Shown here one piece after another: positions 24,577-60,068 of a stretch of 64,000 nucleotides of DNA. The notes below the pieces were generated by a model. It saw nothing but the letters and a program-made list of their open reading frames with translations. It was not told the origin of the DNA and made no database searches. A program made the translations under genes and the position numbers. Source of the stretch: Leucoraja ocellata (Eukaryota); assembly GCA_036785375.1 (NCBI GenBank), contig JAWMAR010000071.1, positions 1,178,001-1,242,000 on the forward strand. The letters run 5' to 3'. The number at the start of each line of letters is the position of its first letter. The first letter of the stretch is position 1.

Positions 24577-25356
24577 AGGGCCTGTCCCACTGCGACAACC
24601 TAATGTGCGAGTTTAGAAGAGTTTGCTCTCGACTCAAACTCGCAACGTGGTCCTAGGAGGTCCTAGGAGGTCCTATGAGGTCACTGGAACTCTCCTTCAT
24701 GCTCGAGGGAAGTTACCGCATACTCGCGGCCTCAGTTTGGTTGAGGAAAAATTTTCAGCATGCTGAAAAAATTTCCGCGAGTACAAATTGGTCGGCATGG
24801 TTCTTTTTGAACGTAGTGCAGTGGAGTGGGGTCACTATGTAGTTATAGGCAGTCAAGGACAGCCATAGGCAATCTCCTTTGCTGACCGGGCATTTTAATT
24901 GGCTCATTGGAGTTTTCAGGACCAAGGAAAACCGACCGGTAATGTTAAATTCCCACTAAACTTTATTTAAAATTGTTTGGCTTCTTAAAAATGTCTCCAC
25001 TCCTTCTCCCCCACTTCTCCCCCTTTCTCTCCCCTTTCTCTCCCCTTCTCTCCCCTTCTCTCCCCTTCTCCCCCCCCCCCCCCCCCCCCCCCCTCCGCGC
25101 TCTCTAAAGGACTTACCGTACACTTTGGCAGCCGTCTTTTACCTTCAGACAGCGCTCCCCCGCTTTCCCTGGCCCCCACCTTTGCGATGTGGTTGAGTAT
25201 GTGTGTCTGTGTGTGTCTGTGTGCGTCTGTGTTGACGTTCGATCGAGCTCACAGTTTCATCGCTGACAGTCGATCCAGCAGGAGGTTTTTCAGGCGAGTG
25301 CCCTCGAGCTTGGTCGAAGACAGTCGCTGAAAAGTCGCGTTAGTGGGACAGGCCCT
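24577..25356. mobile_element. PIF/Harbinger-type MITE (780 bp)
   Basis: TIRs AGGGCCTGTCCCACT / AGTGGGACAGGCCCT; TSD TCA at 24574-24576 and 25357-25359; internal C/T-rich tract and poly-C. Confidence 0.92.
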
Positions 25357-33270: not shown

Positions 33271-34660
33271 TTCAAATTTCACTGCACCAATTGGTGTATG
33301 TGACAATAAATGTCCTGTGTCCTATGTCAATTAGTGTTAATACCTATAGAAAGTAGAATCACATTTGAGGCAGATTAAACTGATTAAATGTCAGTTTGCA
33401 TTTTTAGAAAACAGCTTAAAATGTTTTAAAAAGAGTGTGATGGATTGTTTGAGAAGCACAATTTTGCATTTAATGGATGTGAGCCATGTGCATATTTGTT
33501 TCCCCCTGTGCTTTGCTAAATTCGTTCTAATTTAAACTGAAGTTACTGGTTAAAATGTTGGAAATGAACTCTAAAGATTATGGTTGGCAGGGTAAATGCT
33601 TTTGAATGTTTTTAAAAAACTGAAAAGTATGTTTGGGTTGTTCTTTTTAGTATAAAATGTAGCAGTGTCATTTATCATCATTTACATTGAAGAGGAATTG
33701 GAGCTGAAACAATAATAGCACAGTTTTAGACCATTACTGCATCTAAGTCTGTATGTTTCAATTTGTGGATGAAATCATTTGGCTGGCCATGTATTCAAGG
33801 CAAACCATTGCTATATTATTAGGGCAGATTCAAAGTATCTTTGTTTTGAAAGGTGTGGAATTGCTAAGCACACATTAATAACAGCTTTGACTGTCATTTA
33901 TATTTCCACATCTCCTGCAAATGAGTTTTGTTACCTACTGGGTGAGTTGTGGACCAGCACTCTTATAAAATGCTAATATGAAGCTCTGGTCCCATTTCAA
34001 TGAGGCACGGGGAGGACTAAAAAATAGGCCACAGAAATATCGAACGCCCAGTTCAAAACCTTGGGACATCTAGAGGTAATTTGGAATGGGAGGGTTTAAG
34101 TGATGAAAATAACATCTTAATAAGCTGATAAGATCAATGAAAAATCATGGAAAGATGATGTAGAGATTGGACTGAAGTATTGACTTAAGACAAATAAGCC
34201 GAACTGTGAGTCCAGTTCCCCCACGTAGTCAGTCAGAGCTGTAGCCAGACCTACTTCCCAGAAGTGTAGTCCTCAGGGTCGCTGGAAGTTGACCCAAATT
34301 CCCACATCCTGTAGGAGGAGCATACTGCCATCCGCCTAGCCTCCTCACTGAAGCCTCTCCAGTCAAAGCTTCCACTCTTTGCCTCAATGACAGCACACTA
34401 CCTCAGAACACAGACACTCCCAATAGCAGGGCTGCCAACTCTCATGCATTGAGCGTGAGAATCTAGCCTTTGACCAATTCTCACTCTCTCACACTGATCA
34501 CAAATTACTCACATTCTGTCGTGAGAAATTCTGTGGTCAACGAAAATTTCAAACCTCATATCAAGTGCATGGGCCACGGGTGCTGGAGAGCCAGGGCTGA
34601 GGGAGGGATGGAAGCAGAAGCAGTGGCAGAGACAGATGTGGATGGGGAGCTGGGATGGCA

Positions 34661-34717
34661 AGTGTTTGCCGGGCTGGCGAGTGTTTGCCGGGCTGGCGAG
34701 TGTTTGCCGGGCTGGCG
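34661..34717 (+). repeat. 3 x 19-bp tandem repeat
   Basis: AGTGTTTGCCGGGCTGGCG three times. Confidence 0.95.
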
Positions 34718-34740
34718 AGTCGCTCGCTGCAGCTCCGGCC

Positions 34741-34891
34741 ATGGAGCAGCCTCAGTGCAAGAGTCCCGGGCCATCGGAGGCGTCGGAAGCACCATGAGAA
34801 TCTCTTTGCCGAATTTGCCCTGATGATCAGCATGGACCAGGCTGCGGCTTGGTGCATCCTGGAGGACAACGACTGGCTGCTGTAAGTAGGT
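34741..34891 (+). pseudogene. TDP2: TDP2-like exon 1 fragment (N-terminal UBA-like domain), frameshifted, with splice donor
   Basis: Kozak GCCATGG at 34741. HHENLFAEFALMISMDQAAAWCILEDNDWLL* aligns without gaps to the recalled human TDP2 segment KRRLLCVEFASVASCDAAVAQCFLAENDWEME. TAA (plausibly from GAA) is followed by GTAGGT. Confidence 0.65.
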
Positions 34892-34990
34892 ACCAAGCAC
34901 TCAGTAGAAACAGTGGAAGATAGTGGACTTCAAATGGGGGTGGTTGGAGAAAGCATCCTGCTTGCCTGCTAGAATTTCACTTCCTGTAAC

Positions 34991-35322
34991 TGCAGGAAAA
35001 ATGTTCCCAATGTTGGGGGCGTTCAGAACCAGGGGTCACAGTTTAAGAATAAGGGGTAGGCCATTTAGGACTGAGATGAGGACACACTTTCTTCACGCAG
35101 AGAGTTGTGAATCTGTGGAATTCTCTGCCACAGAAGGCAGTGGAGGCCAATTCACTGGATGTTTTCAAGAGAGTTACATTTAGTTCTTGGGGCTAGCGAA
35201 ATCAAGGGATATGGGGAAAAAACATGAAAGAGGTTCTGATTTTAGATGAACAGCAATGATCATATTGAATGGCTTGAAGGGCCGAATGGCCTATTCCTGC
35301 ACCTATTTTCTATGTTTCTATG
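34991..35322 (+). mobile_element. CR1 3' fragment
   Basis: AGKMFPMLGAFRTRGHSLRIRGRPFRTEMR; (TATGTTTC)n tail. Confidence 0.9.
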
Positions 35323-35344
35323 CTTGAGTATATGGCAATAAAAA

Positions 35345-35994
35345 TGTTGAGAATCTCTCTCCTGTCAATCATGCTGTGAAAGCCACGCCCCTTCTGGTGG
35401 GAGGGGGGAGGGATTATAAAACCCGGAAGTGTGGGTGTGGCTCAGTCTCTGCAAGTTGGGGGAGGGAGAGGTCACGACTCCGTCTCAACTGAACTCACTG
35501 AATATCTACTGAACTGTGAGTGTGGTGCTTATGTGGTGCTTATGTGGTGTTTAAGTGGTGTTTTTGTGGTGTTTTATGGTGGTTTCACCCTGCTTGAAAT
35601 GGTATGAAACTGCATTTGAATGTGGTGGCCTTGCACCCTGCTTGAAGTGGTAAGAAACTGCACTTGAATTTGGTGGCTTTGCACCCTGCTTGAAATGGAA
35701 TTTCAAGGAATAGCCGTGAGTCAACTGCCAGCCCACCAGCTGTGAGGGAGCTGCCAGCACATCAGGCTTGAGGGACTGAGCTGCCACCCCAAGAATCCAT
35801 TTGGCCGACAATGTCCATACTAGCCCTCTGGAAACCTGTCCCTTCGGCCCACATCACCCTTATTAGATCTCCAGAAGCCCCCCCCCCCCCCCCCACTGGC
35901 AACCAAAATTGTAATTGGTGGAGAGGTGGAATATTGTGTTGGGGACCAGCCCTCCCGTGTGAACATGGGACCCAACGGGTCCCACTTAGTCTAG
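35345..35994 (+). mobile_element. Helitron-like element 3' part (5' end not identified)
   Basis: 3' hairpin GGGACCC-AAC-GGGTCCC, then ACTTAGT-CTAG|T. Internal ~48-bp tandem repeats (CACCCTGCTTGAAATGG...) at ~35587-35700. Confidence 0.75.
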
Positions 35995-37699
35995 TATAGT
36001 ATATTGTGTGTGTATATATATTTATATACTGTCGAGCACAAATCTTTCTGATGTTCAATCAGATAGTTATTTAACCTAATGCGCCTACTAACTCTCTTGC
36101 CCATTTAAAACTTTCCCAGACTTCTGTATTTTTATTACATTTCTGATTTAGATTTCTCCAGTCTGAGCTTATTACATTTTGACAAGAAACAGGAATGGGA
36201 ACCTTTCTATAGCTGCATAACCTCTCGGGAGAATAACTTCATTAATGAGCTAGGTAATTTCTCATTTATGTTCTAATCACAACCACATCAAGGAAGAAAA
36301 CTAGCTTGCTGACATAATATGGATTAATTATTCAGAAAGTGTTCTGCTTTCCTTGTAAAAACAGTTGAAAGAGATTGCTTTTAGAACTCTGGTCCGTGTA
36401 AATTTCTACATTTATTTATAATCGGTTTTCACTTTTGGAAAAAAAAACTTTTGCTAAATGGAATGTTTTGATAAAAAATACCAGGATCTATTTCAAAAAC
36501 AAATTGGCCAACTGTTGGACATACAAAAGCCTGGGATCCAACATGAATTGGACCATGAAATAACTGAAATAACTAATCGTGTATCTCTCGAATTCAGTGA
36601 ACCAGTGCTAAACTTGTCACCTTTCCACTGATTCATGTTGCGGGAAGAATTAGCATGGTCTTTGTTTCAGACAGTTTATCATTTCCATGAAAGCACACAG
36701 GTGACAAGACATGGTGTGAGGTAATGGAATGCTATCTGATCCAGTCTGAACTGTACTATAGTGTAGCACATGGATCAAGCACAAGACAAACCGTGCACAA
36801 CAGCGGGCTGAGGACAGACCCGTGATTATTTGTATAACAATGCGGCACTACAAGTTAGAAGGCCTCTGTCACTATCCAGTTAAAATAATGATTTAAAACA
36901 AATGATAAAAATCATTCACAAACAAAAAATGTGCTTGTGCTCAGAATGTTATATTTAGACACTGTGTATTTAATAAAGAAAAGTATCCAGAGGTGAAAGG
37001 AAATTAATGAAAGTACACCAACCGTAGATTTAACACAACCTTTACTTAACACCTTGTATCATTTACTGCCCTGATGTTTGTTCAGAATTTCAATGAGTCT
37101 ATTTTTATTTTAGTACTCTGAAGGCTTTCTCAATGATGTTTAAAATAACAAATGAATGATAATCTGAACTAAATCCCAGAAAGATGGCTTTCCTTTATAT
37201 TAATTACCTCAAAATCAGAACGTATACCAAGATAAAAATATTAATCACTGAGTATATTTTTAATAAACTTTTATGAAACGGAGTTTACATTATTCAACTC
37301 GGAATGTTATTCTTCAGTCTTATAATAGACACCCAGCCATCACATAATGAACAAAACCTCAACCTAAGATTTCGCAAAGAGGAATTCACTCTCATCCCGT
37401 CTTGTTTTTGTACATTGATACAAATACATTTTGAACGTTGCAGTTAAGTAGATGAGACAGAGTGATTACGTACCTTCAGTTTGGATGTTATCCTACAAAG
37501 TTTATAACACTTCTTGAGTGCCTCTTTAACAGACTGCCACGTTACATTTAATAATAGCTGACATGACTTGGACTGGATGATTTTAAACTGTCTGTCACCC
37601 AGCACGAAGGCAGTTCCAACTGAAAGTAGGGGTGCAGCCCATTTAGTACCTTCAGATCCCCTGAAGTCTAATGTACAGATAGGGCAGTAAAGGAATAAA

Positions 37700-51265: not shown

Positions 51266-52397
51266 TACAAACGGGTATTGGTTTGAACCACAACTGCTAA
51301 CTGTACGAAACAATAGTGGCTTGGGAGGAAGCACTGTGGATGGCTTGATTGAAATCATGTATTGTCTTTCCGCTAACTGGTTAGCACGCAAGAAAAGCTT
51401 TTCACTGTACCTCGGTGCATGTGACAATTTGAACTCAAATTGAACTCCAATTCCATGAATGTTAGTATATTTGGTCCTAACCTGAGATATTACCAATTGG
51501 ACAAATGACAACCAATATTGGCTGAATGACAACATATGTAGAATTGGATTCTGAAGATCCTTAAAGAATTTTCTTAAGTGACCAGAGTGTTTTGAACTTC
51601 CTTATAAAGATCACCCACAGGTTCTATTCAATGTACCTGGGAGTCCCTGACAAGCAATCTCCAGTAGACTTATTGTCAGTCTTTGACTGCAAGGTGCCAC
51701 TGATGTAATGCAGACACACTGGCATCCTTCAGGATTATCATTATGAAGTAATCCTGCCCAACTCTGGATTTTTTGCTACAGTTAGGTGCACACGGTCCCG
51801 GCATGAGTAACTGATACAGCATTAAAGACTCGCGTATGTCTGAGCCCTGTGTTGGCAGCAATGAAAGATCAAATTTCATCAGTTTTGAAGCTCTCCTTCT
51901 GTTCAGCTGATCATCTAAGTGTGCCCGCTCATGTTGACATAGCATAAATGAAGTGGTGGCGTAGAAATATATTTTTACTTCTTTCTGTTGCCCTTTTTAA
52001 CCTGATGGTGGCAACTGCTTTTGAAGTACTTCACCCCTGTCGTCATCCTTTATGTATAACCCTGGCAGTGAGCATTGGCAGGTTATTCAACTGTGCAGTG
52101 CATCAAAACCAATCTCATCCTGTCATTACATGCCCAGAATTCAGAGCAAGAAATCCTTACTAAGGTCAGCAAACTGGTCACAAACCAGGAACTTAGAATA
52201 TGCCTCATCTCCACATCTCAGAGCCGTTCACACATCATATCATTGATATCAATGTCAGGATTGCCGTGAATATTTTAAAATACAATCAAAGAGATTATTA
52301 TATTCTTTTACCAGACCAAACTTGACACTTTCAATGCCTATTGCCCATTTACTTTGGAATAAAAGACACAAATATCTGGCAAAACACTTGATGTTGT

Positions 52398-58202: not shown

Positions 58203-58450
58203 GTTCAAGTTCAAGTTCAAGTTCAAGTTACATTTATTGTCACATGCACCAATTGGCACAGTGAGATTTGAATTACCATACAGCCATAGAATAAAAAGAA
58301 CACAATACACGATAGAGTTTAACATGAACATCCACCACAGCGGAATCAACGTTCCCACTGTGAGGGAAGGCAATAACGTTCAGTCATCTTCCTCTTTGTT
58401 CACCCGTGGTCAGGGTCTTTGAACCCTCCGCAGTCGCCACTATGGAGGCC
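58203..58450 (-). mobile_element. 3' part of the CpG-rich retroelement family
   Basis: (TTGAAC)n tail, GTGACAATAAA and CCTTCCCTCACAGTGGGAA motif on the minus strand. Confidence 0.7.
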
Positions 58451-58454
58451 CTCT

Positions 58455-59192
58455 TGCCGGGAAACTTTTTGAATCTCTCCCTGCACTGGAGACCCGACCT
58501 TTTCTCGTCGGGTCTCAGTCGTTGTTGAGGCCGTAACGAGGAGCGGCCTCCAACAGGAAGAGACCGGGGACTCAGGTGTCGACTCACCGTTGCCGTCGCG
58601 GAGCTGGCCGAGTCCGGAGCGGTGGAGGAGCGCTGCTGCTGCTGATGCTGCTGCTGCTGCCGGAGAGTCGGAGGCTCTCTACAGGTCTGTGGACGACGGC
58701 GCCGGGAGCCCACGGCTCCCTGGGGGGAGACCGCTTTTCGGGGCTTCTGCGGCGGCGACTTCTCCCACCCGAGTTGCGGGGTCGAAGAGCTCCTGGAGCG
58801 GGGCCTGACACCACTGCCCCGCGCGGCTGGAATGGCCGCGGACTCTGCGAGCGCACACCGGGGGCTCCAACATCAAGACCCGGTGTGCGACCTCGCATCA
58901 CCCGGCGTGGCTTTAATGGCCGCGGGACAATCGCCATCGCCAGCCGGGGGCTATGACTTTGACTCTGACATCGGGGGGGGGGGGGGGGGGGGGGAGAGTG
59001 CAGTGGAGAGAGAAGTTTATTTGGCCTTCCATCACAGCTATGTGATGGATGTTTATGTTAAATGTAATTATGTTGTGTCTGGGGTCTATTTGTGTGTAAT
59101 GTATGGCTGCAGAAACGGCATTTCGTTTGGACCTCCAGGGGTCCAAATGACAATTAAATTGACTCTTGACTCTTGACTCTTGACTCTTGACT
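58455..59192 (+). mobile_element. CpG-rich non-coding retroelement copy
   Basis: Shares GGGAGACCGCTTTTCGG, GGAGCGGGGCCT and GCCTTCCATCACAG with 52398-53092; (TTGACTC)n tail. Confidence 0.72.
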
Positions 59193-59345: not shown

Positions 59346-60068
59346 AGGGCCTGTCCCACTAACAGGACTTTTCAGCGACTGTCTTCAACCTTCAGGTTCG
59401 AAGCCACTCGCCTGAAAAACCTCGAGCTGGATCGACCATCAGCGATGAAACCGCAAGCCGGATCGACCGTCTGCGCGCGCACACACACATACATCGCAAA
59501 GGCGGGGGCCAGGGAAAGCGGGGGGGGGTGCTGTCTCAAATTCACACCCATGATGAACAGGAAGGTAAAAGACGGCTGGCACAGTTACTGTATGTCCTTT
59601 ATAGAGCGCGGAGGGAGGGGGGGGGGGGGGACGAGAGAAGGGGGAGAGAACGTGTGGAGCCACTTTTAACAAGCCAGACAACTGTTAATAAAGTTTAGTG
59701 AGCATTTAACATTACCGGTCGGTTTTCCTTGGTTCTGAAAACTCCAGTGAGCCAATTAAAATGCCCGGTCAGCAAAGGAGATTGCCTATGGCTACCACGA
59801 CTGCCTAGTGACTCCACTGCACTGCACTACAAGTTTAAAAGAACTGTGCCGACCAATTTTTACTTGCGGAAGATTTTTCAACGTGCTGAAAAATTTTCCT
59901 CGACCAAACTAAGGCCGTGAGTATGCGGGAACTTCCCTCGAGCATGAAGGAGAGTTCCAGTGACCTCCTAGGACCTCCTAGGACCATGTGTCAACCATGC
60001 TGCGAGTTTGAGTCAAGAGAAAACTCTTCTAAACTCGCAAATTAGGTCTCCGCGGTGGGACAGGCCCT
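59346..60068. mobile_element. PIF/Harbinger-type MITE, inverted copy of the 24577-25356 family
   Basis: TIRs AGGGCCTGTCCCAC / GTGGGACAGGCCCT; TSD TAA at 59343-59345 and 60069-60071; interior is the reverse complement of the 24.6-kb element. Confidence 0.92.

What the first reader, a model, noticed from the sequence alone, without database searches (positions are those of the whole stretch)
34741..34891. Captured TDP2-like exon 1 inside a transposon
Seen: a GC-rich leader, Kozak ATG (MEQPQCKSPGPSEASE), a frameshift, then HHENLFAEFALMISMDQAAAWCILEDNDWLL, TAA and a GTAGGT donor. Established (from memory): the TDP2 N-terminal UBA-like domain reads KRRLLCVEFASVASCDAAVAQCFLAENDWEME; 13 of 32 positions are identical without gaps. 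Several odd residues (CAT, ATG, TGG) fit CpG decay. The retained donor and absence of later exons point to DNA-level capture rather than retroposition. Inference: Pack-type gene-fragment capture by a DNA transposon, rarely described in vertebrates, which could spread a promoter/first-exon cassette.
Basis: partly seen in the sequence, partly recalled or inferred. Interest (0 to 1): 0.75.

Follow-up and report, generated by a model that had tools for sequence, protein, structure and literature searches.

The report
Skate transposon spreading a TDP2 exon
A broken copy of the front end of the skate DNA-repair gene TDP2, likely its first exon, sits inside a repeated element found in four related genomes; a cut-and-paste transposon likely captured it once and likely spread it to thousands of places, far more than the handful reported for such captures in animals.

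Summary
Confirmed, and larger than described. Window 34608-34885 is a decayed copy of the N-terminal coding region of skate TDP2: 64% identity to Leucoraja TDP2, E 2.7e-7. Homology to the host protein stops exactly at a GT donor at 34886. In 4 of 4 runs laid (four organisms) the stretch is a high-copy repeat with a sharp end at 34427: 60-139 contigs with unlike flanks per run, and depth over the exon 2,600-4,700 times the flank (a rough figure only). The stop and the frameshift are not in the family majority; other copies keep an open frame that reads through the donor. All 5 element copies share an indel absent from both host proteins, so one capture preceded the spread. The left end matches fish elements, one with an 11/13 inverted far end, so a non-autonomous hAT-like carrier is likely. 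The right end, target-site duplication, host intron DNA and expression are untested. Gene capture is known (animal Pack-TIRs; bat HelibatN3/NUBPL). New: skates, and a probable TIR carrier at a copy number reported so far only for Helitrons in the papers read.

The parts
34427..34439 (+). Element end, putative 13-nt terminal inverted repeat (CAGGGCTGCCAAC)
   Evidence: Depth step and 60/90/114/139 contigs with unlike flanks at 34427 in runs X1/X2/X5/X6; same motif starts 5 of 5 elements in L001-L005, and L004 ends in an 11/13 inverted copy
34427..34513 (+). Left arm with short subterminal repeats (34441, 34453, 34488), related to element ends in other animals' DNA
   Evidence: 73-75% identity over 90-106 nt to L001 and L002; motif positions
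34514..34607 (+). Unassigned: inner element sequence or captured TDP2 5' UTR
   Evidence: High-copy, collinear in another copy P0004; host DNA not available
34608..34885 (+). Captured TDP2 N-terminal coding region (inferred exon 1), from an upstream ATG through a second ATG at 34741 to the break point
   Evidence: Matches P0005 (A. radiata TDP2) and P0003 (L. erinacea TDP2)
34652..34720 (+). 19-bp tandem, 3.6 units, an expansion of TDP2 coding sequence; unit number varies between copies
   Evidence: single unit in P0002, P0009, P0010 and host P0005; joints skipping this part
34791..34793 (+). Site of a net 11-nt deletion (frameshift), not in the family majority
   Evidence: Loose end behind 34790 in 4 of 4 runs (29-63 contigs, agreement 0.75-0.85); four-residue gap against P0002
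34796..34882 (+). First two thirds of the UBA-like domain (Pfam UBA_4 positions 2-31 of 43 in an intact copy; host covers 2-39)
34883..34885 (+). Stop codon; a Glu codon in the family majority and Glu in both host proteins
   Evidence: G at 34883 in 98-99.9% of depth in 4 of 4 runs
34886..34990 (+). GT donor and about 105 nt of inferred TDP2 intron 1
   Evidence: Host proteins go on differently from exactly this point; same read-through peptide in P0002, P0004, P0009 (scores 106-126 against 21-23 for host)
34991..35325 (+). 3' fragment of a CR1-type LINE with tail; possibly part of the amplified unit
   Evidence: 76-84% identity to other LINE 3' ends in the window; CR1 label recalled; family contigs reach 35000
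35336..35995 (+). Neighbouring element with a Helitron-like 3' end (hairpin 35966-35984, CTAG then T at 35991-35995); link to the TDP2 element untested; start coordinate approximate
   Evidence: Sequence; fold z -1.2, 25 of 200 shuffles as good, so weak

Best explanation
This is an old, broken copy of a high-copy skate repeat that carries the front end of the host TDP2 gene, likely exon 1 with the start of intron 1, inside what is likely a non-autonomous hAT-like cut-and-paste transposon. Shown: TDP2 origin; many copies with different flanks; one shared founder; decay of this copy; insertion shared by four organisms. Inferred: in a skate ancestor a small element copied the 5' end of TDP2 from genomic DNA (template switch or gap repair at a break); that founder was then moved in trans by a transposase to thousands of sites; the exon travelled as a passenger, was methylated and decayed; this copy lost its right end by a later deletion or insertion. 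The cargo encodes only part of the UBA domain, so it would not be expected to make a working ubiquitin-binding protein on its own.
For: Identity. Copy number and sharp end: (flank covered by 1 contig at depth 2.7/25/6.8/61; exon bins 2,600-4,700 times that; flank agreement 0.33-0.35 at 34427 against 0.65-0.85 for the inner loose ends shown, one row at 34424 0.56). Cargo and arm are linked in other copies: P0004 is collinear with 34521-34969 and contig pieces tile 34427-35000. One capture: 5 of 5 element sequences lack 2-4 residues after the GP motif that both host proteins have. DNA level: 3 of 3 other copies that reach the break read into the same post-donor sequence, starting with Val (a GT codon). 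Carrier: same end motif in L001-L005, 11/13 inverted far end in L004. Age: flank-plus-junction contigs in 4 of 4 runs, 8-23 differences in 320-550 nt; long inner pieces about 83-88% alike.
Against: No inverted right end with a matching 8-bp duplication in the 29.5 kb downstream. In L004 the flanks match at only 4 of 8, and 4 of 5 loci show no far end (3 of them hold only 220-414 nt downstream, L003 1,334 nt). Summed contig depth is, by the tool's own note, no copy number; the firm floor is 41-57 distinct contigs over 34883 per run. Family contigs seem to run on into the LINE piece, which fits a retroposon too. Host intron DNA not seen; the hAT label is recalled, not found in print. At 34871-34873 the window has Asp, as in the human PDB chain, where family and both skate hosts have Gln: unexplained, probably a private change.
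Confidence: 0.7

Rival explanations
1. Same capture, but the unit is a LINE-tailed retroposon: old transposon end + TDP2 exon + intron piece + CR1 3' end (34427-35325), copied through RNA by the LINE's reverse transcriptase.
For: Depth does not fall at 34973-35000 and 17-59 records per run pass the ends of the stretch, so the family may include the LINE piece; no right inverted end in the window.
Against: The 5' end is sharp with no fall in depth towards it, whereas retrocopies are usually 5'-truncated (established knowledge); the end motif belongs to elements with an inverted far end; a functional donor would tend to be spliced out of an RNA; only 10 letters of the LINE piece were in the stretch laid.
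Confidence: 0.13
2. The carrier is a Helitron whose 3' end is at 35995 and which picked up the transposon end, the TDP2 exon and the LINE piece, as bat Helitrons do.
For: Hairpin and CTAG end 1.1 kb downstream on the same strand; Helitrons preferentially capture and amplify 5' gene ends in bats and Xenopus (PMC4224331, PMC12001565, passages).
Against: Flanks change exactly at CAGGG, not at a Helitron-type TC start; the hairpin is not better than shuffles; no evidence that other copies include 35336-35995.
Confidence: 0.1
3. A one-off or segmental duplication of TDP2 exon 1 that happens to lie among repeats, or a chance likeness.
For: Only one copy in the 64-kb window; no Pfam hit for the window peptide.
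Against: Exon covered by 41-57 distinct contigs per run at thousands-fold depth, heterogeneous flanks; 4 other element-type ORFs; E 2.7e-7 to skate TDP2.
Confidence: 0.02
4. Reverse direction: the skate-specific N-terminal leader of host TDP2 came from the element, and only the UBA part is old host sequence.
For: The leader before the UBA part was compared only with two skate proteins.
Against: The UBA part matches human TDP2 and is continuous with the leader in both host and element; fish relatives of the arm carry no such leader.
Confidence: 0.05

Closest known systems
Animal Pack-TIRs (Tan et al. 2021, PMC8277862; abstract, sections 7 and 9, passages, term search of 12 supplements)
   Same: TIR-type element, mostly hAT or Tc/mariner, with host DNA captured at DNA level; Pack-hAT-N8_XT carries 291 bp of the CAPSL 5' UTR.
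   Different: Only four (1.4%) of their cases are multicopy, the example with three copies; elephant shark had 0, and 'skate' and 'TDP2' do not occur in text or supplements. Ours looks like thousands of copies, but both ends and the duplication are not demonstrated. Their screen took young cases with clear parents, so old high-copy cases may have been missed (inference).
HelibatN3 / NUBPL and other bat Helitron captures (Thomas et al. 2014, PMC4224331; passages)
   Same: Promoter, 5' UTR, first exon and part of intron 1 amplified to a thousand copies; 5' gene ends reach 4,690-5,505 copies in sum; one copy gives a cryptic splice site to a transcript.
   Different: Rolling-circle carrier; ours has a TIR-type left end and no demonstrated promoter.
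Heli1Xen1 captures in Xenopus laevis (PMC12001565; passages)
   Same: 17 of 19 captured fragments are 5' gene ends.
   Different: Helitron; up to 17 copies for the example given.
TDP2 UBA-like domain (PDB 6q00; Pfam PF14555 UBA_4)
   Same: Source of the cargo.
   Different: Cargo ends at profile position 31 of 43, lacks the rest of the domain and the whole catalytic domain; this copy is also frameshifted and stopped.

Membership tests
TDP2-derived sequence | Best match is TDP2, not another UBA-like protein | tested here: met
TDP2-derived sequence | Break point equals the host exon 1 / intron 1 junction | tested here: inconclusive
   Host and element part exactly at a phase-0 GT; host gene DNA not seen; no paper listed that gives the junction; human exon 1 ending at residue 55 is recalled only
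Pack-TIR (hAT-like) | Internal host-gene fragment captured as DNA | tested here: met
   Donor and post-donor sequence kept, no downstream exon
Pack-TIR (hAT-like) | Dispersed copies with a sharp common end and different flanks | tested here: met
   Left end
Pack-TIR (hAT-like) | Terminal inverted repeats at both ends | tested here: inconclusive
   No right end in this copy; 11/13 inverted end in a related element, 1 of 5 loci
Pack-TIR (hAT-like) | 8-bp target-site duplication | tested here: inconclusive
   None in the window; 4 of 8 in L004
Pack-TIR (hAT-like) | Autonomous hAT partner with the same ends | not testable with these tools
   No genome held for this window
Helitron capture | TC 5' start after A | tested here: not met
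   Common end starts CAGGG
Helitron capture | 3' hairpin and CTRR end belonging to the same unit | tested here: inconclusive
   Such an end at 35966-35995; linkage untested
Processed pseudogene | Joined exons, poly(A) tail | tested here: not met
   No match to later TDP2 sequence in the window (P0006-P0008 give no hit); donor kept

The most novel reading that the evidence does not exclude
A cut-and-paste transposon scattered thousands of initially intact start-codon + half-UBA + splice-donor cassettes through skate genomes; some now act as first exons that graft a TDP2 N-terminus onto other genes, or small RNAs aimed at the family also damp the host's own TDP2, a gene that repairs protein-blocked DNA breaks, so a transposon family would have altered germline DNA repair in its host.
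Probability: 0.1. Interest if true: 0.8.

Novelty: new variant of a known kind. Interest (0 to 1): 0.52.

Why it matters
If the carrier is a TIR element and the count holds, this is an animal Pack-TIR amplified two to three orders of magnitude beyond the multicopy cases in the 100-genome survey, in a lineage that survey did not cover. It gives a natural experiment: thousands of datable copies of one coding first exon with its donor, enough to measure how often such cassettes are spliced into genes and whether silencing of the family spills onto the parent gene. Practically, TDP2 exon 1 will be repeat-masked or mis-mapped in skate data. As a single copy it is a dead passenger.

Tried and rejected
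No whole genome is held, so copies could not be counted directly. Pfam on 4 window peptides: 0 families; on the read-through peptide 0. Homologue search with the UBA frame alone: 0 of 7 candidates. Atlas: best hit 0.89, a cluster with 17% UBA_4, lead only. Full HMMER scan with P0004: 1 hit (P0009), no chimeric protein seen; the library keeps one protein per 50% cluster, so this is weak. Protein-based scan of metagenome contigs: 0 of 594 candidates confirmed. L001-L005 carry the end motif but no TDP2 cargo. Rfam: 0 matches in the window. No RNA holder listed among runs; expression and splicing untested. Candidate right ends downstream (10 sites with up to 4 mismatches, best at 51863) have at most 3 of 8 flank matches and were rejected. 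Paper searches (listings only unless named) showed no report of a TDP2-bearing transposon or of gene capture in skates; Repbase/Dfam and subscription journals could not be searched, so the family may already have a library name. PMC6628236 and PMC11369425 (passages) confirm the N-terminal UBA domain but give no exon 1 boundary. Earlier findings: none near this place, by words or by sequence.

Full report
Setting. The window is repeat-rich animal DNA full of LINE reverse-transcriptase fragments. The closest proteins to the finding are from two skates, so I treat it as skate DNA (inference). No whole genome was available, so copy evidence comes from public contigs laid on 33900-35000: 4 of the 24 runs listed, four organisms. 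That output shows only its best rows (114 difference rows, 940 loose-end rows and 18,022 pieces were not shown).

Observation. The ATG at 34741, the frame change, the UBA-like peptide, the TAA at 34883 and the GTAGGT at 34886 are all there. The UBA frame's best PDB hit is human TDP2 UBA, 13 of 26 identical, E 0.015. Read with X at the break, the 47 residues find 2 proteins among 3 candidates: L. erinacea TDP2 (P0003, 64%, E 2.7e-7) and an unnamed 112-residue ORF (P0002, 69%). The part 34796-34882 is 21/29 identical to P0003, and 0 of 2000 shuffles come close. Pfam does not see the window peptide but sees UBA_4 above its cut-off in P0002.

The captured piece is bigger. A. radiata TDP2 (P0005) has 32 more N-terminal residues. 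These align with element copies (59/81 identical for P0002) and with the window from an ATG at 34608. The 19-bp tandem at 34652-34720 is a local expansion of that coding sequence; other copies have one unit.

It is a high-copy element. Left of 34427 each run has essentially one contig (depth 2.7, 25, 6.8, 61). From 34427 depth jumps, and 60, 90, 114 and 139 contigs have loose ends there whose letters agree only 0.33-0.34, i.e. different flanks; 53-79 more end at 34426 in three runs. Over the exon (34825-34898) depth is 2,579-4,722 times the flank. The tool warns that this is no copy number, so I read it as 'likely thousands'; the firm floor is 41-57 distinct contigs over 34883 per run. The left end may also be shared by sister families without the cargo. 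Arm and cargo are linked in other copies: P0004 is collinear with 34521-34969.

The damage is private, the founder was open. At 34883, 98-99.9% of depth has G, giving Glu as in both hosts. A loose end behind 34790 in all four runs shows 11 more letters in the family, which removes the frameshift (gap). Tabled majority letters turn Phe to Cys, Met to Val, Ile to Thr, Ser to Gly, Trp to Arg and Asp to Gln, matching one or both skate hosts at these places, as does Asn to Ser. Four changes sit in CpG context (34773, 34794, 34829, 34850). All 5 element sequences lack 2-4 residues that both hosts have, so one capture came before the spread. Contigs spanning flank and junction exist in 4 of 4 runs, with 8-23 differences over 320-550 nt, so this insertion predates the split of these organisms; long inner pieces are about 83-88% alike, so the family is old.

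DNA-level capture. Both hosts continue with the rest of the UBA domain right after the shared Leu-Leu-Glu; the window has GT there, and 3 of 3 other copies that reach this point (P0002, P0004, P0009) read on into the same unrelated peptide, starting with Val. No later TDP2 sequence is in the window. This is what exon 1 plus the start of intron 1 would look like, but the host gene's DNA was not seen, and no paper found gave the junction. The cargo covers UBA_4 positions 2-31 of 43 against 2-39 in the host, so it is not a whole domain.

The carrier. The end motif also starts 5 of 5 elements in metagenome contigs that look like animal host DNA; L001 and L002 match the arm to 34513 at 73-75%, and L004 is a 310-nt element that ends in an 11/13 inverted copy, though its flanks match at only 4 of 8. 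Short imperfect inverted ends with subterminal repeats fit hAT elements (recalled; no paper with this motif). In the window no right end or duplication was found. After 34990 come a LINE 3' piece (to 35325) and an element with a Helitron-like 3' end (35995). Family contigs appear to run into the first 10 letters of the LINE piece, which keeps a retroposon reading alive (0.13); a Helitron composite is less likely (0.10).

Mechanism. Shown: origin, dispersal, single founder, decay, age. Inferred: a non-autonomous hAT-like element copied the TDP2 5' end from DNA, by gap repair or replication template switching as proposed for Pack-TIRs (PMC8277862, abstract and section 9), was amplified in trans, and the exon decayed as a methylated passenger. 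Confidence 0.7 for the whole, about 0.9 for capture plus dispersal whatever the carrier. Nothing here shows expression, splicing from the donor, or promoter activity; at most about 95 bases of possible 5' UTR or promoter lie before the first ATG.

Comparison and novelty. Gene capture by DNA transposons in animals is known: 370 Pack-TIRs in 100 genomes, only four multicopy, none in elephant shark, no mention of skate or TDP2; bat HelibatN3 carries the NUBPL promoter, exon 1 and part of intron 1 at a thousand copies; Xenopus Helitrons favour 5' ends. The anatomy here is that of HelibatN3, the probable carrier that of a Pack-TIR. Ten paper searches showed no report of this family; repeat libraries could not be checked. 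Verdict: real, new variant of a known kind, interest 0.52.

Noticed in passing
window 34991-35325: LINE (CR1-type, label recalled) 3' piece directly after the intron-like part; family contigs seem to run into it, so it may be part of the amplified unit.
   Followed up: partly
window 35336-35995: Element with 11-, 48- and 26-bp tandems inside and a Helitron-like 3' end (hairpin, CTAG then T); no recognisable 5' start, as if fused to the TDP2 element by a deletion.
   Followed up: partly
L004:1936-2245; L001-L005: Small elements with the same end motif in animal-like DNA inside metagenome assemblies; L004 is a near-complete 310-nt element.
   Followed up: partly
L001 and window 34420-34426: L001 and the window share the 7 flank letters just before the element end; target preference or chance.
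   Followed up: no
window 34871-34873: Two changes give Asp, as in the human PDB chain, where the family and both skate hosts have Gln.
   Followed up: no
P0006-P0008: Three transcript-type TDP2 proteins from public contigs all lack the N-terminus; may reflect assembly breaks at the repeated exon.
   Followed up: no
window 24659-25019 and 59635-59985: Two pairs of 149-159 nt inverted matches at 91%, copies of another dispersed element.
   Followed up: no
window 58384-59176: GC-rich stretch with overlapping open frames and simple repeats, probably element-derived.
   Followed up: no
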